This document shows positions 21,043 through 36,585 of a stretch of 42,360 nt of DNA, in pieces; positions within the stretch are counted from its first letter, which is position 1, and each line of letters opens with the position of its first letter. Under the pieces are notes generated by a model. That model was given only the letters and a program-made list of their open reading frames with translations. It was not told where the DNA came from and searched no databases. A program made the position numbers and the translations under genes. Origin of the DNA: Candidatus Krumholzibacteriia bacterium (GTDB taxonomy: Bacteria; Krumholzibacteriota; Krumholzibacteriia; WVZY01; JAKEHA01); NCBI GenBank assembly GCA_035687255.1, contig DASRYI010000083.1, forward strand, positions 1 through 42,360, written 5' to 3'.

Positions 21043-21075
21043 CCGGGTTTTGGAAGGATACCCCTTGGGAATTCG

Positions 21076-24000
21076 CTACTTGAGCAGCACCATCTTGCGC
21101 GTGGTGGCAAAGCCCGGGGCGGTCATCCGGTAGAAGTAGATGCCCGAACTCACGGGGCTGCCCGCATCATCGCGACCGTCCCAGACCGCCACGTAACGCC
21201 CGGCGTCTTTCGGCCCCGACACCAGCGTCCGTACGCGGGCGCCGCGCACATCGTACACGATCAGGCTCACGCCCGCCTGCGCCCCGGAGCGGGCGCCGTC
21301 CGGAACCCAGTAGTCGATCTTTGTAGTCGGATTGAACGGGTTGGGATAGTTCTGTCCCAGGGCCGCGCGGCTGACCGGCACATACAACATGCCGGTCTCA
21401 TGCACCACGCCGGTTTCTCCGCTGAGCCGGTAGACGTATTCGTCGCCCATTTCGACGCTGGTGTCACTCACCTGAACGCGGCCATCGGGCGTGGCATTCA
21501 CACCGCGCGCGATGCGCTGGAACACCCCCGTCGTCCCGCCCTGCACCGGAGCGCGGTACACATCGAAGGTCCGCCCCGCCTCCACCGGAACGTTCCATTC
21601 CAGATTGATGCGGTTGTCGGCCAGCGTGAACGCGAAGCGTGTTCCCGCCACCGGCGTGGGTTGCAGATAACCCACGCGCCCGTTGTTGTGCAGGTTGGCG
21701 TGGAAACGCGGCCATGGCGCATTCGCCGGATTCCACGGCGAGTTGAAGTGCCACACGTAGACGTTCTTGTCCCAGCCCGCCGCCACGATGTCGACCTTGC
21801 CGTCGCCGTCGACGTCGGTCACGGTCGGCACCGAGCGCATGGCGTCGCCGGTGGTGAGCGGGAATCCCGCCAGCACCACCCCGTTGCGGTTCCAGGCCCA
21901 GATCTTCTTCTCCTCGCTGCCGATCAGCACGTCACGCAGCCCGTCGCCGTCGATGTCCGCGATCACCGGCGACGATTCCGTATACGTGGTCGCCGAGTAG
22001 GTGGTCGGGAATCCGGGCAGATCCGCGCCCGTGGACGTGAGCCCGTACAGTTTGCCGTTGTACGTGGGAACGAAGGTCTCCAGTTTGCCGTCGCCGGTCA
22101 CATCGCCGATGGCGGGAGAAGGCGCGAAGAAGTACGTGTTCCCTATTGTCGTGCGCGACCACAGGTCAGTGCCGTTGTTCTTGATACAGCGAACGTGGCC
22201 ATCCTTGATGTTCACGACGATTTCCAGGGAACCGTTTCCGTCCACGTCGCCCACGGCCGGACTGCCGGCGATGTCGTCGGAGAGCGCCACCGGAAACCCG
22301 GGCACGTTGGTGCCGTCGTCGTTGAAGGCAAACAGCTGATTCCCCTGCGTACCCACGATGATCTCGTCCTTGCCGTCGCCGTCGATGTCCGCCAGTGCGG
22401 GCACGGAATACTGGAGCGAGCATCCGGTCAGGCGCGCGAACACACCCTGGGTGGCAGGATTGGAATCGCCGTCGCGATACTCGGTCCCGTCGCTCTTCCA
22501 CACGTACAACACCCCGAGTTCATCGATGGCGACGACTTCGAAAAGGTTGTCGTTGTTGATGTCGCCCACCGCCACACCGGCGCGAATGTTGTTCTCCACG
22601 GGACGCGGCCACCCGGGCAGCACGGTCCCGTCGTATCTGAAAATGTAGACTTGCTTGGTGTCACGCGACGCCGCCACGATATCCAGTCCTTTGGTTCCGT
22701 CCATACGCGCCAGCGCGACGTGCCCCACGTAGCTCTGCCCCTGGGTGCTGAGCACGCCCCAGCTGAGCGGATTGGAGTCACCGTCGATGAGCTCGATGCC
22801 GTTGGCGTGCCACGCGTACACGTACTTGTCGCCGACCACGATGTCCTGGCCGCCGTCGCCGTCGATGTCTCCCACCGCGACCGAGGAGACGGTCTCCGAC
22901 TCCATCGCAATCGGCCAGCCCGCCAACTGCGCCGGATTGGTGCTCCCCGAATACACCGCCGACATCGCGCTTTCATTTCCCGAGACGTCCACGGCCGTGG
23001 CCTTGTAGTAATAGGTCGTTGTCGGACTGAGACCGGTATTCATGAACAACGTGTGCGGAACCGGATCGACGTTGACCTGCGTAAACGGCCCGGCCCCGCT
23101 CAGAGAGCGGTACACGTTGTAGTACATCACGTCGGTACTCGGACTTGGTGACCACGTGAGCTGCAACCGGTCCGGCCCGATGCTGGGATCAATGACGATA
23201 TTGGTCGGCGGGCCGGGCGGCCGCAGTTCTACCGTGTCCTCATAGGCGCGTCCGAACAGATCCACCAGGCGCAGGCGCAGGCGGTGCTCGGTCGCGACGC
23301 TGCTTTCCGTCAGCGTAAATCCGGTGGTGTTCTCAATCGAACCGAGGCTGGGAATGCTGGCGTACGCCGAAGTTCCGCCCCCACCGATGGTAAACGCGCC
23401 GTCGAGGTCGTACGCCGTCATGGTTCCGCCGGGGTACGCACCGGTACCAAAGTTCTTCACCTTGTAAAACAGCTTGAACTGCTCTCCCGCCTGCACCACG
23501 CCGTCGCCATTGCCGGTGCCGGTGTCGTCGATGCGAAGCTTGACAAGGGAGAGATTGGGTTCGTGGACCAGTTTCTTGAAGGTATCGCGCCAGGTCTCAA
23601 TGCCGTTGTTCTTGATGATCAACGTGAACGGAATGGCCTGCTGGTCGGTCAACGAACTCGCAAAGGAAACACGACATCCCCCGGTCATGGTCTGCGTGGC
23701 ACCGGCGGCGATGGTGGTGCCCGCCGCGGTACTGTCGACCACCGTGACGCCCGCAGTCCCGGCGCGCAGGACGACGCTCACGCTGCCGCTGGTGGCGGTG
23801 CCGTTGTTCTTGAGCGAGAAACCCAGGTCAACGGTTTCGCCGCCGTCGATGACGCCGTTGCCGTTGCCGGAGGTCCCGCCCGTGTTGTCGTCGTCGATGG
23901 TGATGGAATTGATGGCCAGGTACGCTCCGGTACCGCCCACCGTGATGGTGCCCTCGTAGCGCTTGCAATTGAGCGCGGTCACCACCACATCGATTGTGCC

Positions 24001-26031
24001 CGCGCTCTCGGCGCGGAACGACAGCGTCGCCTGTCCCAATGCGTTGGTGGTACCCACCTTGTAGTCGTCACTGCCCTTGGACAGACACACGGTCGCGAAT
24101 TGCAGCGGGTTTCCCCCTTTGGTCACCGTTACCGTAATCGAGTTGGTGCCCTTGTTCACGCTCGAGGGAAAGGCCACGGCCATGGTGGAAACCGGCCCGG
24201 TCCACAACGGCATTTCAGGGTCGGCCAGCAAGGTATAGGTGAAGTGCGTCCAGCGGTCGCCGGCGTCGGACGCTTCGGCGTACGCGGTACGCGCTTCCCG
24301 CGAGCGGGCAAAGGCCTCGCCGATGTGCACCACGTTCTGATTGAACAGGAGGTCGTAGTACTCATCGAGGTAATCGGTGGCGACGGTGGGAAACGCGCTG
24401 TCGTTGGAACCGACCACCGACACCGCTCCACCGTTCACGACGCGCAGGAAGTGCTCCGCCAGGCACTCGTAGGTGTACGCACAGGCGGTGCAGTTCAGCA
24501 GGTTCATGTTGGACAGCTTGACGCCGTTGGTGAGCCCATCGGCGTCCGCGTTCACCAGGCTGGCGTCACCACACGACATGTTGAATCGAAACCCGTGCCC
24601 GATGTGCACCACATGGTTGTATCCGGTGTTGAGCGAATCGATGGCCGCCTGCCGCGTTTCCGGCAACGAGCCCGGATACAGGCTGTAGGTTTCATAGTTG
24701 CGGGCCACGGAGAGCCCCGGGGCGGTGAGATCGGAAAGCCGGATGTATTCGGCGAGGTCGGCGCCGTTGAGGGTGATGGTGTCTCCAGGGTGGTAGTTGG
24801 ACGGAAACAGCACTTCGCCCAGCATCAGGATCTTTTTCTCGTACGTGGTGTTCACCGGTGTCTCGTAGTTCTTTACCTTGCCGACCATCAGGTTGACTTC
24901 CGCGTTGTTGCGCGTCGGCAGCCGGCCCACGTACACCTCGGCCCACAGGTCGGCGTTGTCCGAACCAAATTCGCCGAACACGGCGTCGTGGTCGGCGTTC
25001 CAATCGCCGTCGAGACAGCCGAAGTACATGTCGACGGGAATGCTGCTGCCTACGCCGGACGGATAGAACGCGCTGTAGGCCATGCGCACCGGAATCTGGG
25101 CGACATCCCCGCCCAGCAGCAGATACTTGATCCCCCACAGTGAGTAGGCGTCTTTCACGAAATTGCGGATGGTCTCCGCCATGTCGGAGCCGTTGCGATA
25201 ATTGGCAGCGATCCATTCGGTCGTGCGCACCACGGTGGGAACGCCCTTGCTGGTCTTCCAGTCCGCCAGCACCTGATACGCGGCCGCGAGCGAGTCATTG
25301 GTCACGATCACGTAGTCGACCGGGCTCCCCTCGAGCGACGGGTACGTGGATGCGGTGAACCCGCTGTGCGTCTCGGGCACCACCACTTCCGTGAAGGCGT
25401 ACGCGGACAGCGCCTCGGGATTGACGACCATGTGTTCGAGATTCTGGCGCACGCTTTCCCGCCATCCGTCGCGATGGCGTACACGCGCCGCCGTCGTGCT
25501 CGTCAACGGACGCGTGTCGATGCGCAGTTCGACGTCCGACGCGCGCCGCAGAGATCCCGAGTCGGTCCCGAACGGATACACCGCAAAACTGGCCACCTGA
25601 TATCCACACAGGGTGCCGGTACCGAGATACTCCACCCGCTGGGACGCATCGCGCGTGCGGGATGGCGCCGTCACACGCTCACCCTCGGTTCCCACCAGAT
25701 CGCCGGCGGCGGCAGGCGCAAATGTGTCAGCCATTCGGGTCTCGCCAGAAAACGTGAACGAGAAGGTGTCCACTTCCTGGCCCTGGGGAAGAACGATGCG
25801 AACGGTACGGCGTGGAAGTTCGGTTGCGCCCGGCGTCCGCGGCACATCCCACCCGGAACCGCGCAGCGCAATGCGATCGCCGTCGGTCTCGTGCGAAACC
25901 GTTGCGGGATCACCCGGCAGCGAAACCGTGTACGTGAGCCGGTCGGCATGGGCCGGCGTACTGAGAACGAAGGGGGCGGAAACAACCGTGCAGCACAGGG
26001 CCAGCAGTCGTGCAACGGGTCCCTTGGTCAT
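21076..26031 (-). CDS. Giant secreted protein, paralogue 1 of 3: gingipain-like C25 cysteine peptidase + beta-sandwich modules + FN3 + ~8 FG-GAP/VCBS repeats + T9SS-type C-terminal domain (1651 aa)
   Basis: Track frame trimmed to ATG 26031, which is preceded by GGAGG. The signal peptide is MTKGPVARLLALCCTVVSAPFVLSTPAHA. The C25-like block is DYVIVT..ADWKTSKGVPTVVRTTEWI..YLLLGGD..DMYFGCLDGDWN..VYVGRLP..YETPV..HIGHGFRFNM..LLNCT..ADPEMPLW. The FN3 stretch is LQLTWSPS..YNVYRS..YYYKATAVDVSGNES. Repeats include GDIDGDGGQDIVVG, ADIDGDGKDEIIVG, GDVDGNGSLEIVV, ADIDGDGLRDVLIG and TDVDGDGKVDIVAAG. The C-terminal tail is LGQNYPNPFNPTTKIDYWVPD..YDVRGARVRTL..PVSSGIYFYRM..TRKMVLLK. Confidence 0.9.
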   Translation of the reverse strand: MTKGPVARLLALCCTVVSAPFVLSTPAHADRLTYTVSLPGDPATVSHETDGDRIALRGSGWDVPRTPGATELPRRTVRIVLPQGQEVDTFSFTFSGETRMADTFAPAAAGDLVGTEGERVTAPSRTRDASQRVEYLGTGTLCGYQVASFAVYPFGTDSGSLRRASDVELRIDTRPLTSTTAARVRHRDGWRESVRQNLEHMVVNPEALSAYAFTEVVVPETHSGFTASTYPSLEGSPVDYVIVTNDSLAAAYQVLADWKTSKGVPTVVRTTEWIAANYRNGSDMAETIRNFVKDAYSLWGIKYLLLGGDVAQIPVRMAYSAFYPSGVGSSIPVDMYFGCLDGDWNADHDAVFGEFGSDNADLWAEVYVGRLPTRNNAEVNLMVGKVKNYETPVNTTYEKKILMLGEVLFPSNYHPGDTITLNGADLAEYIRLSDLTAPGLSVARNYETYSLYPGSLPETRQAAIDSLNTGYNHVVHIGHGFRFNMSCGDASLVNADADGLTNGVKLSNMNLLNCTACAYTYECLAEHFLRVVNGGAVSVVGSNDSAFPTVATDYLDEYYDLLFNQNVVHIGEAFARSREARTAYAEASDAGDRWTHFTYTLLADPEMPLWTGPVSTMAVAFPSSVNKGTNSITVTVTKGGNPLQFATVCLSKGSDDYKVGTTNALGQATLSFRAESAGTIDVVVTALNCKRYEGTITVGGTGAYLAINSITIDDDNTGGTSGNGNGVIDGGETVDLGFSLKNNGTATSGSVSVVLRAGTAGVTVVDSTAAGTTIAAGATQTMTGGCRVSFASSLTDQQAIPFTLIIKNNGIETWRDTFKKLVHEPNLSLVKLRIDDTGTGNGDGVVQAGEQFKLFYKVKNFGTGAYPGGTMTAYDLDGAFTIGGGGTSAYASIPSLGSIENTTGFTLTESSVATEHRLRLRLVDLFGRAYEDTVELRPPGPPTNIVIDPSIGPDRLQLTWSPSPSTDVMYYNVYRSLSGAGPFTQVNVDPVPHTLFMNTGLSPTTTYYYKATAVDVSGNESAMSAVYSGSTNPAQLAGWPIAMESETVSSVAVGDIDGDGGQDIVVGDKYVYAWHANGIELIDGDSNPLSWGVLSTQGQSYVGHVALARMDGTKGLDIVAASRDTKQVYIFRYDGTVLPGWPRPVENNIRAGVAVGDINNDNLFEVVAIDELGVLYVWKSDGTEYRDGDSNPATQGVFARLTGCSLQYSVPALADIDGDGKDEIIVGTQGNQLFAFNDDGTNVPGFPVALSDDIAGSPAVGDVDGNGSLEIVVNIKDGHVRCIKNNGTDLWSRTTIGNTYFFAPSPAIGDVTGDGKLETFVPTYNGKLYGLTSTGADLPGFPTTYSATTYTESSPVIADIDGDGLRDVLIGSEEKKIWAWNRNGVVLAGFPLTTGDAMRSVPTVTDVDGDGKVDIVAAGWDKNVYVWHFNSPWNPANAPWPRFHANLHNNGRVGYLQPTPVAGTRFAFTLADNRINLEWNVPVEAGRTFDVYRAPVQGGTTGVFQRIARGVNATPDGRVQVSDTSVEMGDEYVYRLSGETGVVHETGMLYVPVSRAALGQNYPNPFNPTTKIDYWVPDGARSGAQAGVSLIVYDVRGARVRTLVSGPKDAGRYVAVWDGRDDAGSPVSSGIYFYRMTAPGFATTRKMVLLK
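21079..21360 (-). other. Paralogue 1: T9SS type-A-like / FlgD-Ig-like C-terminal domain, approx. aa 1558-1651
   Basis: LGQNYPNPFNPTTKIDY ... IYFYRM ... RKMVLLK matches my memory of the Por_Secre_tail (TIGR04183) consensus. Confidence 0.65.
21712..22929 (-). other. Paralogue 1: FG-GAP/VCBS repeat region (about eight repeats, putative beta-propeller), approx. aa 1035-1440
   Basis: The unit (P)G(W/F)P ... x-D-(I/V)-(D/N/T)-G-D-G ... (I/V)V recurs about eight times (counted by eye). Confidence 0.65.
24196..25320 (-). other. Paralogue 1: C25 (gingipain-like) catalytic domain, approx. aa 238-612
   Basis: The boundaries were set by eye, from DYVIVTNDS to ADPEMPLW. The putative catalytic His479 codon is at 24595-24597 (GHG context). 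The putative catalytic Cys514 codon is at 24490-24492 (LLNC context). Confidence 0.6.
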
Positions 26032-26238
26032 GAGGCCTCCACGGCAGTGCCATTCCGGACTGGAAAGCCGGCGGCCTGCACGTCTCAACTGGTTCTGCCC
26101 GGTCCGCCTGCCAGAACGCGGCACCGAACGATCTTCAAAACTGACCTGTCGATGGAGATGTAAAATCCGTTGTTGGTAGCAGAGATGCCGTGCCGTGAAC
26201 TCCCGCGGTTGTTCGACACTTCAAAAGCAGCGAATCAC

Positions 26239-26267
26239 AGTATATCGCATGCGGACACCGGCGTCAA
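26239..26267 (-). promoter_or_regulatory. Near-consensus sigma70-type promoter in front of paralogue 1
   Basis: Minus-strand reading: TTGACG (26267-26262), 17-nt spacer, TATACT (26244-26239). This implies a leader of about 200 nt before ATG 26031. Confidence 0.55.
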
Positions 26268-26316
26268 CGGGAAGGTGCATCACCGACCGTGGACAACAGA
26301 AAGTCCCTCCACAAAT

Positions 26317-29300: not shown

Positions 29301-31266
29301 AGTCCTCGTCGTCTTTCGACAGGCACACCATGGCCGAGTCCACCGGATTGCCATTGTCCGTCACCGTGACCGTGATGGAGTTGGTGCCGGTGGCAACCGA
29401 GGACGGATGGCTGAGCGCCAGCGTGGTGACGGGGCCGGTCCACATCGGCATCTCCGGATCGCCGAGCAACGTGTAGATGTAATGTGTCCACAGGTCGATG
29501 TAGTCGCCCGACTCCGCCAGCGGGGTGCGCGGCAGACGTGAACGCGCAAACACTTCGCCCAGGTGCACGACGTTCGTCTGGAACAGCAGCCGGTAGTACT
29601 CATTCATGTAGTACTGCGATGCATTCGGGAAGGCGCTGTTGTTGGCGCCGATCACGGAAACAGCGCCGCCGTTGGGGTTGCGCAGGAAGTGTTCGGCGAT
29701 GCACGAGTAGTTGTAGGCCGCGCCGGTACAATTCAGCATGAACAGACAGAACTGCTTGTTGCCGTTGGTCAGCGCGTCGGCATCCGAGTTCACAATACTC
29801 ACGTCGCCCACTTCCATGTTGAACCGGAACCCGTGTCCCACGTGCACGACATGGTCGTATCCGTTGTTGAGCGAATCGATGACCGCCACGCGGTTTTCGT
29901 CCACGGAACCCGGGAACAATTCCTCGGTCTCATACATGCGCGCGATGTAGAGGTTGGGGTTCGTCATGTAGCTGGTTCGCACATATTCGGTGAGATCGGC
30001 GCCGTTGAGCGTGATGGGCTGCGGCGGCACCCATCCCATCGGGAACAGCACTTCGCCGAGCAGAAGCACCCGCTTGCCGTTGTTGACGTTTACGGGGGTC
30101 TCGTAGTTCATGACTTTGCTGATCATCAGGTTGGCCTCGGCAACCGAATCCGACGGCAGACGCCCAACGTAGACTTCCGCATACAGGTCGGGACTGTCGA
30201 CCGTACCGCCCTCCCCGAATACATCGTCGTGATCGCCGTTCCAGTCGCCGTCCAGGCATCCGAAATACATGTCGGCGGGCAGGAACTGGCCGCCGTCATA
30301 GAAGCCGCTGTACGCCAGACGCGGCGGGATTTCGGCCGTGTCACCACCCAGCAGCACATACGTGATTCCCCACTTGGTGTAGGCGTCGATCACGAAGTTG
30401 CGGATGGTCTCCTGGATGTCGGAACCGTTACGATAGTGCGCGGCAATCCATTCCGTGGTGCGCACCACGGTGGGCACGCCCTTGGCCGTCTTCCAGTCGG
30501 CAAGCGTCTGATAGGCGGCCGCCATCGAATCCGGCGTCACGATCACGTAGTCCACGGCGCTCCCTTCGAGCGAAGGAAACGACGTGGGCTGGAATCCACC
30601 GGGACGTTTCGCGACGGGAATCTCGTTGAACACGTAGGCACCCGCATCGCGCGGATTGATGACCATGCTGGCAAGTTCGTCGCGCGCCCGCGCGCGTATC
30701 TGCGGCGAAAGTCGCTGTAGAAGCGTGGGCTGAATGCGCGCCGAAGGCGCGCTTTCCACGTCCAGCGTCACGTCCGAAGCCACCACCTGGCCGTCTTCCA
30801 CCCGCACCGCATACACCGCGAAGCTCGCGATGGTGTAACCGTGCAGGATGCCCGTGGACAGCAACCGGGCGGACTGCGCGGGAAAAACGTCTCCTTCACC
30901 CGACACCATCATGGCCGACATTCCCGGCCGCCCATCTTCACTGACGGCGGACGTGGCGGTGGCGAGATGGTCGGCCGACGTGAGAACGCGCGTATCGCCG
31001 GCGGTTACGTGAAACGACGTGACGTCTTCCCCCTGCGGGAGGAGGACCGATACGACGCGATACGGGAGCGCGGGTTGGCCTGGCTCGTCGAGCACGCTGA
31101 ACCCGGGATCATCGACGCGTATCGACGTGACACCCCCCGACTGCTCGACGTGAACACGCCCGGAGGGAAACGGGAGAGAAAAAGAGCGATTGCCGGCGGC
31201 GGCAATGGAAACCGAGCACACCACTAGCGCGGAGGAAAGTGCAAGCAATCTGACAGCGCGTCCCAT
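26317..31266 (-). CDS. Giant secreted protein, paralogue 2 of 3: C25 peptidase + beta-sandwich modules + FN3 + FG-GAP repeats + T9SS-type C-terminal domain (1649 aa)
   Basis: ATG 31266 is preceded by GGGAGG. The signal peptide is MGRAVRLLALSSALVVCSVSIAAA. The protein is colinear with paralogue 1 throughout. The His478 codon is at 29833-29835 and the Cys513 codon at 29728-29730. The tail is LGQNYPNPFNPVTKIDYWVPD...VRKMVLLK. Confidence 0.9.
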   Translation of the reverse strand: MGRAVRLLALSSALVVCSVSIAAAGNRSFSLPFPSGRVHVEQSGGVTSIRVDDPGFSVLDEPGQPALPYRVVSVLLPQGEDVTSFHVTAGDTRVLTSADHLATATSAVSEDGRPGMSAMMVSGEGDVFPAQSARLLSTGILHGYTIASFAVYAVRVEDGQVVASDVTLDVESAPSARIQPTLLQRLSPQIRARARDELASMVINPRDAGAYVFNEIPVAKRPGGFQPTSFPSLEGSAVDYVIVTPDSMAAAYQTLADWKTAKGVPTVVRTTEWIAAHYRNGSDIQETIRNFVIDAYTKWGITYVLLGGDTAEIPPRLAYSGFYDGGQFLPADMYFGCLDGDWNGDHDDVFGEGGTVDSPDLYAEVYVGRLPSDSVAEANLMISKVMNYETPVNVNNGKRVLLLGEVLFPMGWVPPQPITLNGADLTEYVRTSYMTNPNLYIARMYETEELFPGSVDENRVAVIDSLNNGYDHVVHVGHGFRFNMEVGDVSIVNSDADALTNGNKQFCLFMLNCTGAAYNYSCIAEHFLRNPNGGAVSVIGANNSAFPNASQYYMNEYYRLLFQTNVVHLGEVFARSRLPRTPLAESGDYIDLWTHYIYTLLGDPEMPMWTGPVTTLALSHPSSVATGTNSITVTVTDNGNPVDSAMVCLSKDDEDYQVGSTDGSGQVTLSFRAETTGSITVVATGRNHARATDTITVTNSAAYVRIDNITVDDDNVGGTSGNGNGIIEGGEIVDLGFTLRNTGSASTGTVSVVLRSGDGAATVVDSTASGGTIAPGGTGVMTGGCRVELSASTPDEHSVPYVLVIKDNGTEMWRDTFKRDIHQPKLDLVRLRIDDSGTGNGNGVVDAGEQFKLYYKIKNFGTGAFPGGTLVVTDLDAGFNIINGADTYGTAASLSEIENTAGLVLVEPSIATGHRLGVTIVDAKGRNYSDTIELRPPQPPTALVVDPSLGPDKLRVSWTPSISGDASHYNLYQSLASGGPYTLANPDPVSNAFYVSGGLSGNTQYFFRATTIDTSGNESAVSLTYSGSTNPPQLSGWPIAMKVETTSSPAVGDIDGDGNPDIVECADKVYAWHSNGIEMVDGDHDAQTWGVLSSLGSSFVSHPALARMDLDPGLDIIAASRDTKEVYIFKHDGTVLPGWPRPVENTIRAGLVAGDLDGDGKFEVIAVDELGVIYVWHADGTELIDGDSNPATQGVFYRMTGCTLNYSTPAVADIDADGTDELIVGSQGDQVFVFNGDGTVLPGFPFALTGDISGSPAVGDVDGDGWLDIVVYELNGPLHRIDHNGVDHSLGFFTNGASFFSPSPAIGDVMGDSKLEVFVPAKNGRLYGVDYAGNYLPNFPVYYNTSGQYTESSPVIADLDGDGSPDILIGDESRYIHAFNMQGQPVAGFPLFTNDAMRGVPTVSDLDGDGQVDLVAAGWDKNVYVWDSNAIWNPADAPWPRFHANLHNNGRINYVVPTPVAGTRFTFTVADERIHLEWNVPVEAGRTFDVQRAVVDNGATGGFQRIARGVNAGVDGRVQVTDAGVDMGSRYVYRLSGETGVVYETGALYVPVSHAELGQNYPNPFNPVTKIDYWVPDAPGGGKSTVSVVVYDVRGARVRTLASGPMSAGRYVAQWDGRDEAGSPVSSGIYFYRMVTGSFSGVRKMVLLK

Positions 31267-31274
31267 GACGACCT

Positions 31275-31298
31275 CCCGCGGCCGCTAAGGCCGCCGGG
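31275..31298 (-). promoter_or_regulatory. Intercistronic stem-loop overlapping the Shine-Dalgarno site of paralogue 2
   Basis: On the mRNA strand: CCCGGCGGCC-uuagc-GGCCGCGGG, a 9-bp stem with one bulged base. The last GGG forms the first half of the GGGAGG Shine-Dalgarno site (31272-31277). No U-tract follows. The whole gap between paralogue 3 and paralogue 2 is only 44 nt. Confidence 0.35.
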
Positions 31299-31310
31299 AA
31301 TCTATCCCGA

Positions 31311-34300
31311 CTATTTCAACAGCAACATCTTGCGCGTTTCGGAGAAATTCGTGGTTGCCATGCGATAGAAGTATATCCCGGAACTCACGGGGGCGCCGTC
31401 GTCGTTCCTCCCATCCCACTGCACGCGGTAGCGGCCGGCGGGCTGGGTAGCGTTGACGAGGGTTCGCACCCGGGCGCCACGTACATCGTAAATTACCAGA
31501 CTAACGGTGCTCTGGCGAGGCCCACGTTGATCCGGCACCCAGTATTCGATGTGGGTCGACGGATTGAACGGGTTGGGGAAGTTCTGTCCGAGGCCCGCTC
31601 GGGCCACCGGAACGTAGAGGCTCGCCGTCTCGTTGAGGGTCGCTCCGCTCTCCCCGACCAGGCGGAAGGAGTACCGGGCGCCCATCTCCACGCTGGTGTC
31701 CGTCCACTGCACCACGCCGTCCGGCGTCACGGCCACGTTGGACGCCACGCGATGATACCCCGTCGCCACGCCCCCGACCACGTCTGCGCGGTCGACGCCG
31801 AAGTGCGCCCCGGCCTCCAGGGGCACGTGCCATCTCAACTCGAGACGCCCGGGCCGGATCGAGTACGCGAACGTGGCGCCGCTCACGGGCGTCGGCAACT
31901 GTGTGGTGGGGTTGCCGTCGTTGTACAGGTTGGCGTGATATTTGGCCCACGGCGCTTTCTGAGGATTGAACATTTTGGGGAAATCCCACACCCGCACCGT
32001 CTTGTCCCAGCCGGCCGCGATGACTTCCACGTCACCGTCTTTGTCGAGGTCGCAGATCTCGGGCGTCGCGCGCACCGCATCGCTCATGGCGAGTGGAAAT
32101 CCCGCCACCGGCTGTCCGGTCGCGTCCCATGCATCGATGTACTTGTTCTCGTTGCCGAGCACGACGTCGAGCACACCGTTGTTGTCGAGGTCCGCGATGA
32201 CGGGAGAGGATTCCGTCCACGAGCTGGTTGCGTACACCACCGGCCACCCGGGCAGGTCGGTGCCGTTCCAGCGAATGGCGTAGAGATTGCGGTCCTTGCT
32301 GGGAATCAGCGTCTCCAGCTTGCCGTCGCCGTCGAGGTCGCCGAGCGCGGGGGACGGTGAGAAGCTCAGGTTGTCGGGCGCCCAGCGATACCACAGCTGC
32401 GTTCCGTCGCCCTTGAAGGCGTAGGTATCGCCGCTCTGAAGATGAACCACGACGTCCATGCCGCCGTCGCCGTCGATGTCTCCGACCGCCGGCGCCCCGG
32501 CCACCGGCGAGGGAAAGGCTTTCGGCCATCCCGGCGCCGATGATCCGTCGGCGTTGAGCACGAAGAGCGAGTCGCCCTGCGTGCCCACCACCATCTCGTC
32601 GATGCCGTCGCCGTCCAGGTCCCCCATCGCGGGACATCCATACTGATAAACGCAACCCCCGAACTTGCGGAACACGCCGTTGGTGGAAACATCGTGGTCT
32701 CCGTCGCGATACTCGGTGCCGTCGGGATGCCACACGTACAGCACGCCGTGTTCGTCGATCGCGATGACTTCCTTGGTGCCGTCACCGTCGATATCACCGG
32801 CGACGAGGCCGGCGCGGATGGCGTTGAGAACGGTTTGCGGCCAGCCCGCAATGACACTCCCGGTGTAGTTGAAAGCGAAAACTTCGCGCGTGTCGCGTGA
32901 CGCGGCCAGGATATCGAGCCCCGGCACCGTGTCGATGTCCGCAAGCGCGAGGTGCGACACGAAATTGTTTCCCAGCGTGCTGAACAGACCCCAGGTCTGC
33001 GCATTGCCGTCGCCGTCACGCACCTCGACTCCGTTGTGGTGCCATGCGTACACCTTGGTGTCGCCCACGAGGATTTCAAAGGTATGGTCGCCGTCGATAT
33101 CGCCCACCACCGGCGAACTCACGGTTTCGGCGGCCATGGTGATGGGCCATCCCTCCACCTGCTTGGGATTGGTGTTGCCCACCGTTTCCGGCGACAGCGC
33201 GCTTTCGTTTCCCGACGCGTCCAGCGCGCTCAACCGGTAGTAGTAGGTGGTCGTGGGATACAGGCCCCGGTCGAGGAAGGTCGTGTAGTGCACGGGATCC
33301 ACGGAAACCAGGTCGTAGGGGCCACCGGGCGTCCCGGAGCGATACACCTGGTAGCGATTCACATCCAACGAGCCGGACGCGCTCCACGTCAGAACCAGCC
33401 GGTCCGGCCCCAGGCTGGGATCACAGACGAGATTGGTGGGTGGATCCGGCGGACGCAACTCAAACGTTTTCTGCCACAGGCGGCCGTACGCATCGGTAAC
33501 ATCCAGACGGAGATTGTGCGGCGACGCGACGTTCGATTCGCTGAGATAGAAACCAACCGTATCTTCCACGGCGCCGATGCTGGGCAGATCGCCGTACGTG
33601 TCCGCATTGTTGAAGATCGTAAACACGCCGCCCGAAAGATCCACGAGTGTGCCATGCACGGCGTGCGCCGCCCCTGTGCCGAAATTCTTGAGACGGTAGT
33701 GCAGGTGGAAGTTCTCCCCGGCCTGCACCACGCCGTCGCCATTGCCGGTTCCCGCGTCGTCGATGCGCAGTACATCGAAATCAAGCGACGGGGCATGCAC
33801 GATGCGCGTGAAATGATCCGTCCACGCGGTCACCCCGTTCTGCTTGACCGCCAGCGTAAACTTGACCGGCGTGTTGTCGGCGAGCGAGGACGCGAACACG
33901 ACCCGGAAGGGGTCGGACGCGGTGGTGGCCCCACCCGACGCCACCGAACCCACGGTCGCGACGCTGTCGGCCACCGTGACGCCGCCCTGCGACGCGCGCA
34001 GCGCCAGGGTAATGTTGGACGCGGAAACGCCGCCGGTGTTCTTCACGCGAACCGTGAAGTCGATGGTCTCACCCGCATCGATCACGCCGTCAGCATTGCC
34101 GTTGGTTCCCGCCAGCGCGTCGTCGTCGATGGTCTCGGAATCATAGGTCACATACGCCCCCGCGCTCGGCGTCACGGTAATGTTCGCGTCGTAGCGTCCG
34201 CGATTGAGGGCGGTGGCGACAATGCGCACGCTGCCCGCCGACTTCGCGGTCATCGACAACGTCACATTGCCGGAGGCGTCGGTAACCCCCACTTTGTAGT

Positions 34301-36275
34301 CGTCGGTCCCTTTGGAAAGACAGACGCGCGCGCCGGCCACATTCCCCAACGCATCCGAGACATGGACCATGATCGGCGTGGTCCCGATTCCGATCGAAGC
34401 CGGGTACGTCACCGTGAGCGCCTGCACGGGCTCGGTCCAGATGGGCATCTCGGGATCCGCAAGCATGGCGTACGCATAGTGCATGTACAGATCCGAATTG
34501 TCGCTCTGCATGGCGATGGGCGTACGCGGAAACTTGGAACGCGCATACGCCTCCCCGATATGCTCCACATGGTCGACGTAGAGAAGCTTGTAGTACTCGT
34601 CCATGTACGGTTGCGCAACCAACGGATACACGCTTTCGCTGGATCCGATCACGGACACGGCGCCACCGACGGGGTTGCGCAGAAAGTGCTCGCCGAGACA
34701 GTAGTAGGTGAACGCCACCCCGGTGCAGCTGAGAAGGAAGAGATTGCTGTAACGGTTCGTATTGGTGAGTGCGTCGGCGTCGGCGTTGGAGATACTGGCG
34801 TCGCCACACGACATGTTGAACCGGAATCCGTGCCCGATGTGGTTGACCTGGTCGTACCCCTCATTCAGGGACGCGATGGCGGCGGCCGCTGTCTCGGGCA
34901 GCGAGCCCGGGTGCGGCACGTAGTTCTGGTAGTTCTTCTGCACCGTCAACGCCGGATTCGTGAATGCCAGCAGGTACAGGTAGTCCGCGATATCCGCGCC
35001 GTCCTGAGTCACCGACTGCCCGGACTGCCAGTCGATGGGAAACAGCACTTCCGCCAGCAGCAACGTCTTTCCCGTGTACGACGGATCCACCGGCGTTTCG
35101 TAGCTTTCAATCTTGGCGATCAGCGATGCCGCCGTCGCGTTGTCGACGGCGGGAAGGCGTCCCGTGTACACCTCGGGATACAGATCGGTCTGATCGACAC
35201 TCACCGCTTCGCCGAAGTACTGGTTGTGATTGGCATTCCAGTCGCCGTCGAGGCACCCGAAGTACATGTCCGCAGGCAACGTCTTGTCACCCTGATAGAG
35301 CGAATGTCCCAGACGCACCGGAATCTGGTCGGTATCGCCACCCAGAAGCACATAGGTGATACCCCACTGCTGATAGGCATCGAGGATGAAGGTGCGGATG
35401 GTTTCGGCGGGATCGGCACCATTGCGGTAGTGCGCGTCTATCCACTCGGTGGTGCGCACCACGGTGGGAACACCCTTGGCGGTCTTCCAGTCGGCGAGCG
35501 TCTGGAACGTCGCCGCCAGGGAATCGTTGGTAATGATCACGTAGTCGACGTCACTGCCCTCCAGCGACGGATAGGACGTCGGCTGAAAGCCGCCTGTGGT
35601 CTTCTTCGCGGGCGCGCCCTGGAGGGGATACGCTGAGGCCAGTTGTGGATTGACCACGGTGGCAGACAATTCGCGCTGCATGTCCGCGCGGAATCCCTCG
35701 CGCTGGCGCAATCGTCTGGCCACGCGGATGCCCGATGCATCGGGTCCGGTGGTGACGTGCAGCGTGAGCGAGGTGGCCACCGTGAGATCCCCGTTGTCGA
35801 CCCGGATCGGGTACAACGCAAAACTCGCGATGGTAAAGCCGCGCAGGTAGCCGACGCCCAGGAACACGGCCCGCTCCGCCGGATACACGCCCTGGGTGTT
35901 GAATGTCGCCGTGGCGGGTGCCATGCCGGACCCGTTGTCCGCAAACGCGGGCGCCAGCATCGGGGTTACGCCGCGCCCCACCACCACATCCTCTCCGGCG
36001 TCAACGCGCGTGCCCACCACCGTTTCGCCGGGCGAGAGCAACATGCTGATGATTCGATACGGAAGCATCGGCTGCTCCGGCGCCGTGACGTACTGATAGG
36101 AATCGCCGGTGGCAAGCACCTGGTCCCCCGACGCGCTGGATTTCACTGACACGTCCGCGGGCGTTGTATTCAGTGTCCATGTGAGCTCGCCCGCCTGGAG
36201 CGGAACGGTCACGGCAACGAGGGCGAAAATAGAAACGAGAAGGGCAAGGGCGATGCGAAGCAAGCTGGTGCGCAC
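31311..36275 (-). CDS. Giant secreted protein, paralogue 3 of 3: C25 peptidase + beta-sandwich modules + FN3 + FG-GAP repeats + T9SS-type C-terminal domain (1654 aa)
   Basis: GTG 36275 is preceded by GGAGGA. The signal peptide is MRTSLLRIALALLVSIFALVAVTVPLQA. This is the most divergent copy, but it is colinear with the other two. The His482 codon is at 34830-34832 and the Cys517 codon at 34725-34727. The tail is LGQNFPNPFNPSTHIEYWVPD...TRKMLLLK. Confidence 0.9.
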   Translation of the reverse strand: MRTSLLRIALALLVSIFALVAVTVPLQAGELTWTLNTTPADVSVKSSASGDQVLATGDSYQYVTAPEQPMLPYRIISMLLSPGETVVGTRVDAGEDVVVGRGVTPMLAPAFADNGSGMAPATATFNTQGVYPAERAVFLGVGYLRGFTIASFALYPIRVDNGDLTVATSLTLHVTTGPDASGIRVARRLRQREGFRADMQRELSATVVNPQLASAYPLQGAPAKKTTGGFQPTSYPSLEGSDVDYVIITNDSLAATFQTLADWKTAKGVPTVVRTTEWIDAHYRNGADPAETIRTFILDAYQQWGITYVLLGGDTDQIPVRLGHSLYQGDKTLPADMYFGCLDGDWNANHNQYFGEAVSVDQTDLYPEVYTGRLPAVDNATAASLIAKIESYETPVDPSYTGKTLLLAEVLFPIDWQSGQSVTQDGADIADYLYLLAFTNPALTVQKNYQNYVPHPGSLPETAAAAIASLNEGYDQVNHIGHGFRFNMSCGDASISNADADALTNTNRYSNLFLLSCTGVAFTYYCLGEHFLRNPVGGAVSVIGSSESVYPLVAQPYMDEYYKLLYVDHVEHIGEAYARSKFPRTPIAMQSDNSDLYMHYAYAMLADPEMPIWTEPVQALTVTYPASIGIGTTPIMVHVSDALGNVAGARVCLSKGTDDYKVGVTDASGNVTLSMTAKSAGSVRIVATALNRGRYDANITVTPSAGAYVTYDSETIDDDALAGTNGNADGVIDAGETIDFTVRVKNTGGVSASNITLALRASQGGVTVADSVATVGSVASGGATTASDPFRVVFASSLADNTPVKFTLAVKQNGVTAWTDHFTRIVHAPSLDFDVLRIDDAGTGNGDGVVQAGENFHLHYRLKNFGTGAAHAVHGTLVDLSGGVFTIFNNADTYGDLPSIGAVEDTVGFYLSESNVASPHNLRLDVTDAYGRLWQKTFELRPPDPPTNLVCDPSLGPDRLVLTWSASGSLDVNRYQVYRSGTPGGPYDLVSVDPVHYTTFLDRGLYPTTTYYYRLSALDASGNESALSPETVGNTNPKQVEGWPITMAAETVSSPVVGDIDGDHTFEILVGDTKVYAWHHNGVEVRDGDGNAQTWGLFSTLGNNFVSHLALADIDTVPGLDILAASRDTREVFAFNYTGSVIAGWPQTVLNAIRAGLVAGDIDGDGTKEVIAIDEHGVLYVWHPDGTEYRDGDHDVSTNGVFRKFGGCVYQYGCPAMGDLDGDGIDEMVVGTQGDSLFVLNADGSSAPGWPKAFPSPVAGAPAVGDIDGDGGMDVVVHLQSGDTYAFKGDGTQLWYRWAPDNLSFSPSPALGDLDGDGKLETLIPSKDRNLYAIRWNGTDLPGWPVVYATSSWTESSPVIADLDNNGVLDVVLGNENKYIDAWDATGQPVAGFPLAMSDAVRATPEICDLDKDGDVEVIAAGWDKTVRVWDFPKMFNPQKAPWAKYHANLYNDGNPTTQLPTPVSGATFAYSIRPGRLELRWHVPLEAGAHFGVDRADVVGGVATGYHRVASNVAVTPDGVVQWTDTSVEMGARYSFRLVGESGATLNETASLYVPVARAGLGQNFPNPFNPSTHIEYWVPDQRGPRQSTVSLVIYDVRGARVRTLVNATQPAGRYRVQWDGRNDDGAPVSSGIYFYRMATTNFSETRKMLLLK

Positions 36276-36577: not shown

Positions 36578-36585
36578 CGGCTGGC

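What the first reader, a model, noticed from the sequence alone, without database searches (positions are those of the whole stretch)
21076..36275. Tandem array of three ~5-kb paralogues: gingipain-like C25 protease fused to an FG-GAP propeller and a T9SS-type sorting domain
Seen in sequence: three consecutive same-strand genes of 1651, 1649 and 1654 codons (21076-26031, 26317-31266, 31311-36275) are colinear over their whole length. The shared order is as follows.
- A signal peptide.
- A ~200-aa N-terminal region.
- A conserved block DYVI(V/I)T..ADWKT(S/A)KGVPTVVRTTEWI..Y(L/V)LLGGD..DMYFGCLDGDWN..EVY(V/T)GRLP..YETPV..H(I/V)GHGFRFNM..L(N/S)CT..(A/G)DPEMP.W.
- An Ig-like module and two CARDB-like beta-sandwich modules.
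- An FN3 domain.
- About eight repeats of (P)G(W/F)P...D(I/V/L)DGDG...(I/V)V.
- A second FN3-like module.
- The tail LGQN(Y/F)PNPFNP.T.I.YWVPD...YDVRGARVRTL...PVSSGIYFYRM...RKM(V/L)LLK.

Established knowledge (from memory): the first block looks like peptidase family C25 (gingipains, clan CD). The DxDGDG repeats look like FG-GAP/VCBS integrin-type propeller blades. The tail looks like type IX secretion type-A C-terminal domains / FlgD-Ig-like sandwiches.

Inference: a clan-CD protease joined to an integrin-like recognition propeller, and triplicated, suggests a family of surface-displayed or secreted targeting proteases, with the propeller doing recognition and C25 acting as effector. I know of no characterised protein with this full architecture. 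One third of the window is devoted to it, which argues for an important role. Possible roles are proteolytic foraging, predation or surface remodelling.
Basis: partly seen in the sequence, partly recalled or inferred. Interest (0 to 1): 0.8.

Follow-up and report, generated by a model that had tools for sequence, protein, structure and literature searches.

The report
Three gingipain-like propeller protease genes
Three neighbouring 5-kb genes of an uncultured Krumholzibacteria-type bacterium each encode a secreted gingipain-like cysteine protease precursor joined to an eight-bladed calcium-type propeller and a type IX secretion tail; the reading is right, but the family is large, already machine-annotated and follows a known design.

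Summary
Three colinear minus-strand genes (C 31311-36275, B 26317-31266, A 21076-26031) encode proteins of 1654, 1649 and 1651 aa that are 51-62% identical.

Each protein contains, in order:
- a signal peptide;
- a divergent gingipain-type prodomain;
- a Peptidase_C25 domain (E 1e-57 to 1e-61; the His/Cys dyad is invariant in 111 homologues; the AlphaFold model matches RgpB/Kgp, TM 0.75-0.81);
- an Ig-like domain, two beta-sandwiches and an FN3 domain;
- an eight-bladed FG-GAP propeller;
- another beta-sandwich;
- a type-A T9SS C-terminal domain (TIGR04183 above its cut-off).

The array is not peculiar to this window. The block metzincin-like lipoprotein, ClpB, C25 array, acyl-CoA dehydrogenase, ETF recurs on four other contigs, three of which carry the full triplet. 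A, B and C form three old orthologue groups. More than 100 clusters at 50% identity share the C25-to-propeller layout. NCBI calls the homologues "C25 family cysteine peptidase" (Candidatus Krumholzibacteria and Latescibacteria). No paper on the family was found.

Best reading: latent, T9SS-exported, surface or released proteases for protein foraging. The propeller plays the binding role that haemagglutinin/adhesin domains play in large gingipains. Activity, specificity, the propeller's ligand and the presence of T9SS machinery in this genome are untested. I rate this a new variant of a known kind, of modest interest.

The parts
31311..36275 (-). Gene C (1654 aa, GTG start), first gene of the array; C-type orthologue group
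   Evidence: ORF. Pfam and NCBIfam hits. Groups with L001_1 and L004_1 in the tree.
26317..31266 (-). Gene B (1649 aa), 44 nt downstream of C with a GGGAGG ribosome-binding site; probably co-transcribed with C
   Evidence: Spacer sequence. B-type group.
21076..26031 (-). Gene A (1651 aa, ATG start), 285 nt downstream of B with its own promoter-like site
   Evidence: Upstream sequence. A-type group.
31195..31266 (-). B: Sec-type signal peptide (aa 1-24, MGRAVRLLALSSALVVCSVSIAAA); A and C have equivalents
   Evidence: Read directly from the translations. No signal-peptide predictor was available.
30745..31191 (-). B: N-terminal beta-sandwich (aa 26-174), a divergent gingipain-type prodomain
   Evidence: AlphaFold strands at model residues 2-150, pLDDT about 76-95. 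A profile of this region has one PDB hit, the 214-aa Lys-gingipain chain 5mun_A, E 0.029. I take that chain to be the Kgp prodomain from memory. More distant full-length family members score PF08126 Propeptide_C25 at this position. The window proteins themselves give no Pfam hit.
30562..30744 (-). B: linker and two helices (aa 175-235) carrying Arg185, which is invariant inside an RxRxR motif; candidate processing or latency site
   Evidence: Arg185 is present in 111 of 111 homologues, flanked by R183 (83/111) and R187 (91/111). Its function is inferred only.
29464..30549 (-). B: C25 catalytic domain (aa 240-601)
   Evidence: PF01364 E 4.2e-61. phmmer against RgpB 4ief_B E 2.4e-10. Foldseek matches 4ief_D, 1cvr, 6i9a and 4rbm at about E 1e-23, TM 0.75-0.81.
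29833..29835 (-). B: catalytic His478 codon (GHG motif)
   Evidence: Aligns with the His of RgpB's 'YTGHG', which is His211 from memory. Invariant in 111/111.
29728..29730 (-). B: catalytic Cys513 codon (LNCT motif)
   Evidence: Aligns with the Cys of RgpB's 'FDVACVNGD', which is Cys244 from memory. Invariant in 111/111.
24595..24597 (-). A: catalytic His479 codon
24490..24492 (-). A: catalytic Cys514 codon
34830..34832 (-). C: catalytic His482 codon
34725..34727 (-). C: catalytic Cys517 codon
29173..29418 (-). B: Ig-like domain after the catalytic domain (aa 617-698)
   Evidence: PF03785 Peptidase_C25_C, 25.3 bits against a cut-off of 25. Beta-sandwich in the model. Included in the RgpB and Kgp structural alignments.
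28468..29157 (-). B: two beta-sandwich modules (aa 704-822 and 826-933), CARDB-like
   Evidence: All-beta in the model, pLDDT about 85-95. CARDB hits are only marginal.
28183..28446 (-). B: FN3 domain (aa 941-1028)
   Evidence: fn3 is above the cut-off in A and C. B matches the integrin beta-4 FN3 at E 0.0019. Beta-sandwich in the model.
26965..28161 (-). B: eight-bladed FG-GAP beta-propeller (aa 1036-1434); six blades carry DxDxDG calcium-loop motifs
   Evidence: FG-GAP_3 and FG-GAP hits. Blades and motifs listed. Model with pLDDT 91.3 and eight strand groups. Foldseek matches to BBS2/7, V. cholerae Bap1 (6mlt) and chains of the KICSTOR complex.
26635..26877 (-). B: beta-sandwich between propeller and C-terminal domain (aa 1464-1544), FN3-like
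   Evidence: Seven strands in the model. No Pfam hit.
26320..26562 (-). B: T9SS type-A C-terminal sorting domain (aa 1569-1649)
   Evidence: TIGR04183 25.9 bits against a cut-off of 23. FlgD_ig E 1e-11 and Por_Secre_tail E 2.6e-4. Seven-strand sandwich in the model.
24205..25314 (-). A: C25 domain (aa 240-609)
   Evidence: PF01364 E 3.4e-57.
21724..22920 (-). A: FG-GAP propeller (about aa 1038-1436)
   Evidence: plus the alignment with B.
21088..21348 (-). A: T9SS type-A C-terminal domain (aa 1562-1648)
   Evidence: TIGR04183 23.7 bits against a cut-off of 23.
34443..35543 (-). C: C25 domain (aa 245-611)
   Evidence: PF01364 E 1.9e-56.
31956..33152 (-). C: FG-GAP propeller (about aa 1042-1440)
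   Evidence: plus the alignment with B.
31323..31580 (-). C: T9SS type-A C-terminal domain (aa 1566-1651)
   Evidence: TIGR04183 28.2 bits against a cut-off of 23.
36469..36498 (-). Sigma-70-like promoter candidate upstream of C (TTGACG-18-TATAAT, 11 of 12), leaving a leader of about 190 nt
   Evidence: sequence. This is a consensus match only; the region-wide count of such sites does not exceed the shuffled controls.
26239..26267 (-). Sigma-70-like promoter candidate upstream of A (TTGACG-17-TATACT, 10 of 12); shares CGTTGACG...GCGATATA with the site upstream of C

Best explanation
The three genes encode paralogous precursors (zymogens) of gingipain-like clan-CD cysteine endopeptidases that are exported and displayed on, or released from, the cell surface.

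Proposed sequence of events:
1. A Sec signal peptide takes each ~175-kDa precursor to the periplasm.
2. The C-terminal type-A domain directs it through a type IX secretion system. [quoted passage not shown]
3. An N-terminal gingipain-type prodomain keeps the Cys/His active site latent until it is cut off, possibly near the invariant Arg in the RxRxR linker.
4. In the mature protein the C25 domain cuts proteins.
5. Four Ig/FN3-type sandwiches act as a spacer.
6. The eight-bladed, calcium-loop FG-GAP propeller binds substrate, particles or glycans. It fills the role that haemagglutinin/adhesin domains fill in HRgpA and Kgp.

The likely physiological role is extracellular protein foraging by a heterotrophic Krumholzibacteria-type bacterium. 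The three copies are old, separately conserved orthologue groups, so they are non-redundant. C and B probably form one transcript, and A has its own promoter.

Shown here: the domain identities, catalytic residues, fold, paralogy, synteny and family size. Inferred: export route, latency, proteolytic activity, the propeller's binding role and the physiological purpose.
For: - C25 identity: PF01364 E 1e-57 to 1e-61. The RgpB catalytic His and Cys align with the GHG and LNC motifs. His and Cys are invariant in 111/111 full-length homologues.
- Fold: the model of B 25-1035 has pLDDT 91.3 and pTM 0.90. Its top five Foldseek hits are RgpB and Kgp, at about E 1e-23 and TM 0.75-0.81.
- Prodomain: the only PDB hit of the N-terminal profile is the Kgp chain 5mun_A, E 0.029. 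Distant family members and neighbouring C25 proteins carry PF08126 at the same position.
- Sorting domain: TIGR04183 is above its cut-off in all three proteins. The model shows a seven-strand sandwich at the extreme C-terminus. The same tail sits on a fourth protein in the window and on other large proteins in related loci. The mechanism of type-A domains, including PorU cleavage and attachment, is taken from PMC10202324.
- Propeller: FG-GAP hits, eight blades and DxDxDG loops. Its structural neighbours include the V. cholerae biofilm matrix protein Bap1.
- Selection: the C25 domain and the propeller are the most conserved parts within orthologue groups, at 0.81 and 0.78.
- Three orthologue groups and conserved synteny.
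- More than 100 clusters at 50% identity share the C25-to-propeller layout.
- Promoter-like sites and the short C-B spacer.
Against: - No biochemical or expression evidence exists.
- The window proteins do not themselves reach any Pfam Propeptide_C25 score. The supporting hits are weak: E 0.029 and E 0.09.
- The residue aligned with RgpB's S1-pocket Asp163 (residue number counted on the 1cvr chain; its pocket role is from memory) is Asp in only 76 of 111 homologues. P1 specificity is therefore unknown, and the invariant Arg need not be a cleavage site.
- Whether this genome encodes the T9SS translocon, PorV and PorU could not be checked.
- Almost no sites are fixed differently between the A, B and C groups (7 of 362 in the C25 domain, all conservative). 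Sequence therefore gives no direct sign of different specificities.
- The promoter matches are consensus hits in a region where their number equals the shuffled expectation.
Confidence: 0.66

Rival explanations
1. The proteins are mainly surface adhesins or coat components. The propeller and the Ig/FN3 stalk would be the functional part. The C25 domain would serve only for self-maturation, or for processing of partner proteins, rather than for nutrient proteolysis.
For: Two thirds of each protein is non-catalytic binding or spacer modules. The propeller is as conserved as the protease domain. The structural neighbour Bap1 is a biofilm matrix protein. Gingipain-type enzymes are known to process other surface proteins (my knowledge).
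Against: The catalytic dyad and a 362-aa catalytic domain are under the strongest conservation in 111 homologues. A prodomain-type latency device suggests a dangerous, broadly active protease. Related C25 proteins swap the propeller for other modules, namely Laminin_G_3 and CarboxypepD_reg. That marks the protease as the constant element and the binding module as the variable one.
Confidence: 0.12
2. They are PorU-like sortases or transpeptidases. These would be C25-type enzymes that cleave the C-terminal domains of other T9SS cargo and attach them to the surface, triplicated for different cargo classes.
For: The NCBIfam PorU model NF033707 and the PorU2 model NF052324 give hits over the C25 domain, E 1e-25 to 1e-27 and 1e-9 to 1e-13. 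PorU is a Cys/His C25-type enzyme that keeps a C-terminal domain of its own (PMC10202324).
Against: The scores of 87-95 bits are far below the PorU cut-off of 420 and cover only profile positions 360-733 of 1095. The generic Peptidase_C25 model scores twice as high. The best structural matches are gingipains. The overall architecture, with prodomain, FN3 and propeller, is unlike PorU.
Confidence: 0.04
3. The proteins are exported but not by a T9SS. In this lineage the FlgD-Ig-like tail would be just another structural sandwich, or the signal for a different sorting system, and the proteins would stay periplasmic or use another route.
For: T9SS machinery was not demonstrated for this genome or lineage. 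The Pfam Por_Secre_tail score is below its cut-off, at 20.9-21.6 bits against 27, whereas FlgD_ig scores higher.
Against: TIGR04183 passes its curated cut-off in all three proteins. The tail is always at the extreme C-terminus of large signal-peptide proteins, in this window and in related loci. The PNPFNPxTxI motif recurs at protein C-termini across phyla of the FCB group (Fibrobacterota-Chlorobiota-Bacteroidota and allies). According to the review, the distribution of such C-terminal domains tracks that of the T9SS core genes (PMC10202324).
Confidence: 0.1
4. The enzymes are exported as in the best explanation, but their targets are other cells (antagonism or predation) or the cell's own surface (remodelling). 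The propeller would recognise a specific surface ligand.
For: FG-GAP propellers are ligand-recognition modules in integrins (my knowledge). Three conserved paralogues could mean three targets.
Against: No toxin, immunity or contact-dependent system genes are nearby; the neighbours are housekeeping genes. There are very few group-specific fixed differences in the propeller, 11 of 399 positions. Nothing in the data separates this reading from foraging.
Confidence: 0.08

Closest known systems
Gingipains RgpB, HRgpA and Kgp of Porphyromonas gingivalis (MEROPS family C25, clan CD)
   Same: - The order of parts is the same: signal peptide, N-terminal prodomain, caspase-like Cys/His catalytic domain, Ig-like domain, then non-catalytic binding modules in the long forms, then a T9SS type-A C-terminal domain.
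- The catalytic His and Cys align.
- They are the best structural matches, TM 0.75-0.81.
- The N-terminal profile hits the Kgp chain 5mun_A.
   Different: - Sequence identity is only about 19-20%.
- The binding module is an eight-bladed FG-GAP propeller preceded by two sandwiches and an FN3 domain. HRgpA and Kgp carry haemagglutinin/adhesin (cleaved-adhesin) repeats instead.
- The prodomain is too divergent for Pfam PF08126.
- P1 specificity is unknown, because the Asp aligned with RgpB Asp163 is not conserved.
- The host is an environmental, uncultured lineage.
- The genes form a conserved tandem triplet.
PorU, the T9SS sortase (NCBIfam NF033707)
   Same: It has a C25-type Cys/His domain and carries a T9SS C-terminal domain (PMC10202324).
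   Different: The score is 87-95 bits against a cut-off of 420, and only the protease core matches. The flanking domains differ. The window proteins look like cargo rather than machinery.
Shorter C25 + FG-GAP + C-terminal sorting domain proteins of Cloacimonadota (e.g. L008, 1206 aa), and C25 + other module + sorting domain proteins in Krumholzibacteriia, Cloacimonadota, Ignavibacteriae and an Armatimonadota-labelled MAG
   Same: They share the plan Propeptide_C25, Peptidase_C25, binding module, FlgD_ig/Por_Secre_tail. L008 also has the FG-GAP propeller.
   Different: Identity to B is 23-28%. They lack the two sandwiches and the FN3 domain, or they replace the propeller with Laminin_G_3 or CarboxypepD_reg modules. 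All are uncharacterised.
FG-GAP propeller modules in other secreted bacterial proteins: the NCBIfam family 'T9SS-dependent M6-like inactivated metalloprotease' (NF052323) and the Vibrio cholerae biofilm matrix protein Bap1 (PDB 6mlt)
   Same: The propeller region of A, B and C matches NF052323 profile positions 787-950 at E 1e-30 to 1e-32. Bap1 is a structural neighbour, TM about 0.46. In both cases a calcium-type propeller is attached to a secreted protein.
   Different: The catalytic or partner domains differ (M6 fold; a beta-prism in Bap1, from my knowledge). NF052323 scores about 105-111 bits against a cut-off of 600, so the window proteins are not members.

Membership tests
Peptidase family C25 (gingipain family, clan CD) | Match to the family's sequence model above the curated threshold | tested here: met
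   PF01364 scores 194.8, 207.7 and 192.3 bits against a cut-off of 23, covering the full model length.
Peptidase family C25 (gingipain family, clan CD) | Catalytic His and Cys at the positions of RgpB His211 and Cys244 | tested here: met
   The GHG His and LNC Cys align with the RgpB catalytic residues. Both are invariant in 111/111 homologues and present in A, B and C.
Peptidase family C25 (gingipain family, clan CD) | Caspase-like alpha/beta catalytic fold followed by an Ig-like domain | tested here: met
   Model pLDDT 91.3. Foldseek top five hits are RgpB and Kgp, about E 1e-23, TM 0.75-0.81 over roughly 480-510 columns. PF03785 is at or near its cut-off.
Peptidase family C25 (gingipain family, clan CD) | N-terminal inhibitory prodomain (Propeptide_C25, PF08126) | tested here: inconclusive
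   No Pfam hit for the window proteins even at E 10. The N-terminal profile has a single PDB hit, the Kgp chain 5mun_A, E 0.029. hhalign against an N-terminus that carries Propeptide_C25 gives E 0.09. Distant full-length relatives P0131 and P0248 score PF08126 at E 7e-7 and 2e-10 in the same position.
Peptidase family C25 (gingipain family, clan CD) | Endopeptidase activity with defined P1 specificity (Arg or Lys in gingipains) | not testable with these tools
   The residue aligned with RgpB Asp163 is Asp in 76/111 homologues.
T9SS cargo with type-A C-terminal domain | C-terminal ~80-aa domain matching TIGR04183 / PF18962 at the extreme C-terminus | tested here: met
   TIGR04183 scores 23.7, 25.9 and 28.2 bits against a cut-off of 23. 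PF18962 is below its cut-off (20.9-21.6 against 27), while FlgD_ig scores 39-59 bits. The model shows a seven-strand sandwich.
T9SS cargo with type-A C-terminal domain | N-terminal Sec signal peptide | tested here: met
   Each translation shows a hydrophobic N-terminal segment ending in an AxA-like site. This is a reading by eye; no predictor was available.
T9SS cargo with type-A C-terminal domain | The same genome encodes the T9SS core (SprA/Sov, PorV, PorU, GldK/L/M/N homologues) | not tested
   None of these genes lies in the 42-kb window. A bulk NCBIfam scan of 37 ORFs from Krumholzibacteriia loci was uninformative. No literature was found.
FG-GAP / VCBS beta-propeller | Repeated FG-GAP units above the Pfam threshold that fold into a closed propeller with DxDxDG calcium loops | tested here: met
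   FG-GAP_3 scores 89-101 bits and FG-GAP 41-65 bits, both above their cut-offs. There are eight repeats, six of them with DxDxDG. The eight-blade model has pLDDT 91.3, and its Foldseek neighbours are propellers. Calcium binding itself was not tested.
PorU T9SS sortase (NF033707) | Full-length match above the equivalog cut-off | tested here: not met
   Scores of 87.2, 93.3 and 94.9 bits against a cut-off of 420; only profile positions ~360-733 of 1095 match.
T9SS-dependent M6-like inactivated metalloprotease (NF052323) | Full-length match above the equivalog cut-off | tested here: not met
   Scores of 104-111 bits against a cut-off of 600; only the propeller part of the profile (787-950) matches.

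The most novel reading that the evidence does not exclude
The three old paralogues might not be simple isoenzymes. They could assemble on the cell surface into one hetero-oligomeric protease-adhesin machine, as the gingipain-adhesin complexes of P. gingivalis do. Their calcium propellers would dock onto particular polymers or onto other cells. Such a complex would be the main protein-capturing organ of Krumholzibacteria and related uncultured lineages, and a new class of propeller-guided clan-CD proteases.
Probability: 0.1. Interest if true: 0.6.

Novelty: new variant of a known kind. Interest (0 to 1): 0.3.

Why it matters
If the reading is right, uncultured Krumholzibacteria and related lineages invest about 15 kb in three gingipain-like surface proteases, and have kept them in the same chromosomal slot.

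This would extend the gingipain design (latent C25 protease, binding module, T9SS tail) from oral Bacteroidota to environmental phyla. It would also pair that design with a different binding module, a calcium-type eight-bladed propeller.

It gives a concrete candidate for extracellular protein degradation in sediments and soils where these bacteria live. It also offers a tractable set of natural variants, with more than 100 clusters, for studying how clan-CD proteases are kept latent and targeted.

It does not reveal a new principle. The parts and their order are familiar, and the family is already machine-annotated.

Tried and rejected
1. Taxonomic spread through the GTDB species genomes. It returned C-terminal domain proteins from many FCB-group phyla rather than the orthologues. 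It was useful only for finding distant C25 relatives (L007, L008, L010, L011, L013, L015, L017, L020, L034).
2. Looking for T9SS machinery genes near related genes. A bulk NCBIfam scan of 37 ORFs from eight Krumholzibacteriia loci listed only histidine-kinase families. It is uninformative and is not evidence of absence.
3. Literature. Seven searches combining Krumholzibacteria(ota), Latescibacteria, C25, gingipain, FG-GAP and T9SS found nothing on this family.
4. PorU identity. Rejected on score.
5. Pfam on the isolated N-terminal 240 aa at E up to 10. No hit. hhalign against one sequence bearing Propeptide_C25 was weak, E 0.09.
6. Specificity from the RgpB Asp163 position. The aligned Asp is not conserved, so no call was made. 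Model coordinates are not exposed to scripts, so neither the S1 pocket nor prodomain-active site contacts could be measured.
7. Signs of functional divergence between A, B and C. Only 22 group-specific fixed sites across the ten domains tallied (1534 positions), none obviously in the active site.
8. Regulatory RNA in the ~190-200-nt leaders. No Rfam family and no tRNA in the window. The two leaders align only around the promoter-like boxes.
9. The longer GTG start of gene A (26124). Judged unlikely.
10. The many long antisense ORFs over the array, for example 32952-35636 on the plus strand. Treated as artefacts of the high G+C content.

Full report
**Observation**

The window is 61-65% G+C throughout. 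It carries three long ORFs on the minus strand at exactly the coordinates given: C 31311-36275 (1654 aa, GTG start), B 26317-31266 (1649 aa) and A 21076-26031 (1651 aa). They are transcribed in the order C, B, A.

- A MAFFT alignment of the three products has 1667 columns and only 19-24 gap columns per pair. Identities are 61.5% (A/B), 52.1% (A/C) and 50.7% (B/C).
- The first ~200 residues are the most divergent, at 22-38%.

**Domain content**

Pfam gives the following:
- Peptidase_C25 over the whole 374-position model: E 3e-57, 4e-61 and 2e-56.
- Peptidase_C25_C Ig-like domain at or near its threshold.
- fn3 above the threshold in A and C.
- FG-GAP_3 and FG-GAP well above their thresholds.
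- FlgD_ig at the C-terminus.
- CARDB only marginally.

NCBIfam TIGR04183, the T9SS type-A sorting domain, passes its curated cut-off in all three. NCBIfam's PorU sortase model and its M6-like T9SS-dependent model are hit only through the C25 core and the propeller respectively. Both are far below their cut-offs.

**Catalytic competence and fold**

- phmmer against PDB sequences finds RgpB (4ief_B E 2.4e-10; 1cvr). The RgpB 'GHG' His and 'AC' Cys align with H478 and C513 of B. From memory these are His211 and Cys244, the catalytic dyad.
- Both residues are invariant in 111 full-length homologues and are present in A and C.
- An AlphaFold2 model of B residues 25-1035, built on a 60-sequence family alignment, has mean pLDDT 91.3 and pTM 0.90.
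- Its five best Foldseek matches in the PDB are RgpB and Kgp, at about E 1e-23 and target-normalised TM 0.75-0.81.
- The model divides this part into six units: an N-terminal beta-sandwich (aa 26-174), a helical linker, the alpha/beta catalytic domain (240-601), an Ig-like domain (617-698), two further sandwiches (704-822 and 826-933) and an FN3 domain (941-1028).

**The N-terminal region**

It has no Pfam hit on its own. Three lines of evidence suggest what it is:
- A profile of it has one single hit in the whole PDB sequence set, the 214-aa Lys-gingipain chain 5mun_A (E 0.029). From memory this is the Kgp prodomain.
- More distant full-length family members (P0131, P0248) score Propeptide_C25 at the same position.
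- Neighbouring C25 proteins of other FCB-group lineages (Fibrobacterota-Chlorobiota-Bacteroidota and allied candidate phyla) do so as well.

I therefore read it as a divergent gingipain-type prodomain, which would make the products zymogens. This step is supported but not proven.

An Arg inside an RxRxR motif between this sandwich and the catalytic domain is invariant in 111/111 sequences. It is a candidate processing or latency residue, by inference only.

**The C-terminal third**

The model of B 1025-1649 (pLDDT 91.3) shows three units:
- Eight four-stranded blades (aa 1036-1434). They match the eight sequence repeats, six of which carry DxDxDG calcium-loop motifs.
- A seven-strand sandwich (1464-1544).
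- The seven-strand C-terminal domain (1569-1647).

Structural neighbours of the propeller are the BBS2/BBS7 propellers, chains of the KICSTOR complex and the V. cholerae biofilm matrix protein Bap1. It is thus a generic FG-GAP-type propeller, of a kind that includes a bacterial matrix adhesin.

**Context and relatives**

The neighbours are ordinary chromosomal genes:
- ExbB-ExbD-ExbD-TonB;
- a proton-pumping pyrophosphatase;
- a class-A penicillin-binding protein;
- alanine racemase;
- an 844-aa protein with the same kind of C-terminal domain;
- ETF alpha and beta subunits and an acyl-CoA dehydrogenase;
- then the array, ClpB, and a lipoprotein-like protein with a PKD domain and a metzincin motif.

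The database search returned more than 120 near-full-length relatives (46-72% identical, about 1650 aa). Those named by NCBI are called 'C25 family cysteine peptidase' or 'T9SS type A sorting domain-containing protein', from Candidatus Krumholzibacteria and Latescibacteria MAGs.

The block metzincin-like protein, ClpB, C25 genes, acyl-CoA dehydrogenase, ETF recurs on four other contigs. It has three C25 genes on contigs of 469 kb, 246 kb and 3.2 Mb. In GCA_964588695.1 it has two C25 genes plus an M6 peptidase with a C-terminal sorting domain. A single-copy relative sits in a different context.

Identity patterns and a neighbour-joining tree show three orthologue groups. Each triplet contributes one A-type, one B-type and one C-type gene, and the C-type is always first. 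In one genome A and B are swapped. The triplication is therefore old and has been maintained. It is not a recent amplification.

**Family size**

An exhaustive HMMER search with B 230-1429 found 2880 representatives at E <= 1e-30. More than 100 clusters at 50% identity match in one stretch over the whole C25-to-propeller span, at 31-53% identity and typically 1500-1700 aa. Five of them checked with Pfam have C25 plus FG-GAP. Three also have the FlgD_ig tail.

A shorter Cloacimonadota protein (L008, 1206 aa) has Propeptide_C25, C25, FG-GAP and FlgD_ig/Por_Secre_tail. Other relatives keep the prodomain, C25 domain and sorting domain but replace the propeller with Laminin_G_3 or CarboxypepD_reg modules. 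The protease with its sorting signal is the constant element, and the binding module is exchangeable.

**Expression signals**

- Strong sigma-70-like matches lie upstream of C (36498-36469) and of A (26267-26239). They share CGTTGACG...GCGATATA.
- C and B are separated by 44 nt with a GGGAGG site and no T-run. The likely units are therefore C-B and A.
- These are consensus matches only.
- No Rfam family or tRNA is present.

**Mechanism**

The best-supported reading is a set of three latent, exported gingipain-like proteases:
1. Sec export.
2. Recognition of the type-A C-terminal domain by a T9SS, followed by its removal and either release or anchoring by a PorU-type sortase. This mechanism is as reviewed in PMC10202324.
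3. Removal of the prodomain.
4. Proteolysis by the Cys/His dyad.
5. The Ig/FN3 modules act as a stalk, and the calcium-type propeller acts as the substrate- or particle-binding module. This corresponds to the adhesin domains of HRgpA and Kgp.

Within orthologue groups the C25 domain and the propeller are the most conserved parts (0.81 and 0.78). The prodomain is the least conserved (0.60). This pattern fits two functional modules plus a latency device.

**What is not shown**

- Proteolytic activity and P1 specificity. The Asp aligned with RgpB Asp163 is present in only 76/111 homologues.
- The propeller's ligand.
- The existence of T9SS machinery in this lineage. My attempts failed and no literature covers it.
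- Any functional difference between A, B and C. There are very few group-specific fixed sites.

**Rivals**

- Mainly an adhesin or coat protein with a self-processing protease.
- PorU-like sortases. This is rejected on the membership test.
- Export by a route other than T9SS.
- Antagonism or surface remodelling rather than foraging.

**Novelty and score**

However, the family is abundant in public data and is already named by automatic annotation. Its logic copies the large gingipains, with a different binding module.

I class it as a new variant of a known kind, with interest about 0.3. The conserved three-gene arrangement and the propeller are the only mildly unusual points.

Noticed in passing
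window 15252-17786 (+): An 844-aa protein whose only recognisable part is a C-terminal FlgD_ig / T9SS-type tail. TIGR04183 scores 19.6 bits, just under its cut-off, and the PorZ model matches only over the tail. It has no sequence relative in the PDB. It is a fourth protein with this tail in the window, and the function of its body is unknown.
   Followed up: partly
window 39333-41123 (-): A 596-aa lipoprotein-like protein (N-terminus ...TQASCGS) with a PKD domain and a C-terminal [11 protein letters not shown] metzincin zinc motif. Peptidase_M10 scores 25.9 bits, and matrilysin matches at E 0.003. Together with ClpB it sits upstream of the C25 array in L001, L004 and L005 as well, so a second putative extracellular protease is syntenic with the array.
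   Followed up: partly
window 36469-36498 (-) and 26239-26267 (-): Two sigma-70-like promoter candidates share the extended sequence CGTTGACG...GCGATATA upstream of genes C and A. Each leaves an untranslated leader of about 190-200 nt with no Rfam match. This could reflect common regulation of the two transcription units.
   Followed up: partly
L002:1-14959 compared with window 21076-36275, L001 and L004: In one related genome the A-type and B-type genes are in swapped order (C-A-B instead of C-B-A). In L005 (GCA_964588695.1) only two C25 genes are present, and an 868-aa Peptidase_M6 protein with the same C-terminal sorting domain follows them, ahead of the acyl-CoA dehydrogenase gene.
   Followed up: partly
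window 30712-30714 (-) (Arg185 of B) and the equivalent positions in A and C: An Arg within an RxRxR motif between the prodomain-like sandwich and the catalytic domain is invariant in 111 of 111 homologues. By contrast, the residue aligned with RgpB's S1-pocket Asp163 is Asp in only 76 of 111. What this conserved Arg does is unexplained.
   Followed up: partly
window 4520-7029 (+): An ExbB/TolQ - ExbD - ExbD - TonB-C gene set lies directly after a 619-aa TPR protein and a PBP-like protein (1543-4394). It looks like an ordinary energy-transduction cluster.
   Followed up: no
window 349-1488 (+), 10543-11703 (+), 41682-42308 (-): ORFs of 379, 386 and 208 aa have no Pfam or NCBIfam match. In this G+C-rich sequence it is unclear whether they are real genes.
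   Followed up: no
window 21010-23151 (+), 23284-25143 (+), 32952-35636 (+): Long antisense ORFs of 619-894 aa overlap the three protease genes. They are most likely artefacts of the high G+C content and were not examined further.
   Followed up: no
window 36551-36578 (-): A G+C-rich hairpin (GGGGCGGGC-gtct-GCCCGCCCC) followed by TTT lies just after the ClpB stop codon. It is too T-poor to be called by the terminator scan, but it may separate ClpB from the C25 array.
   Followed up: no
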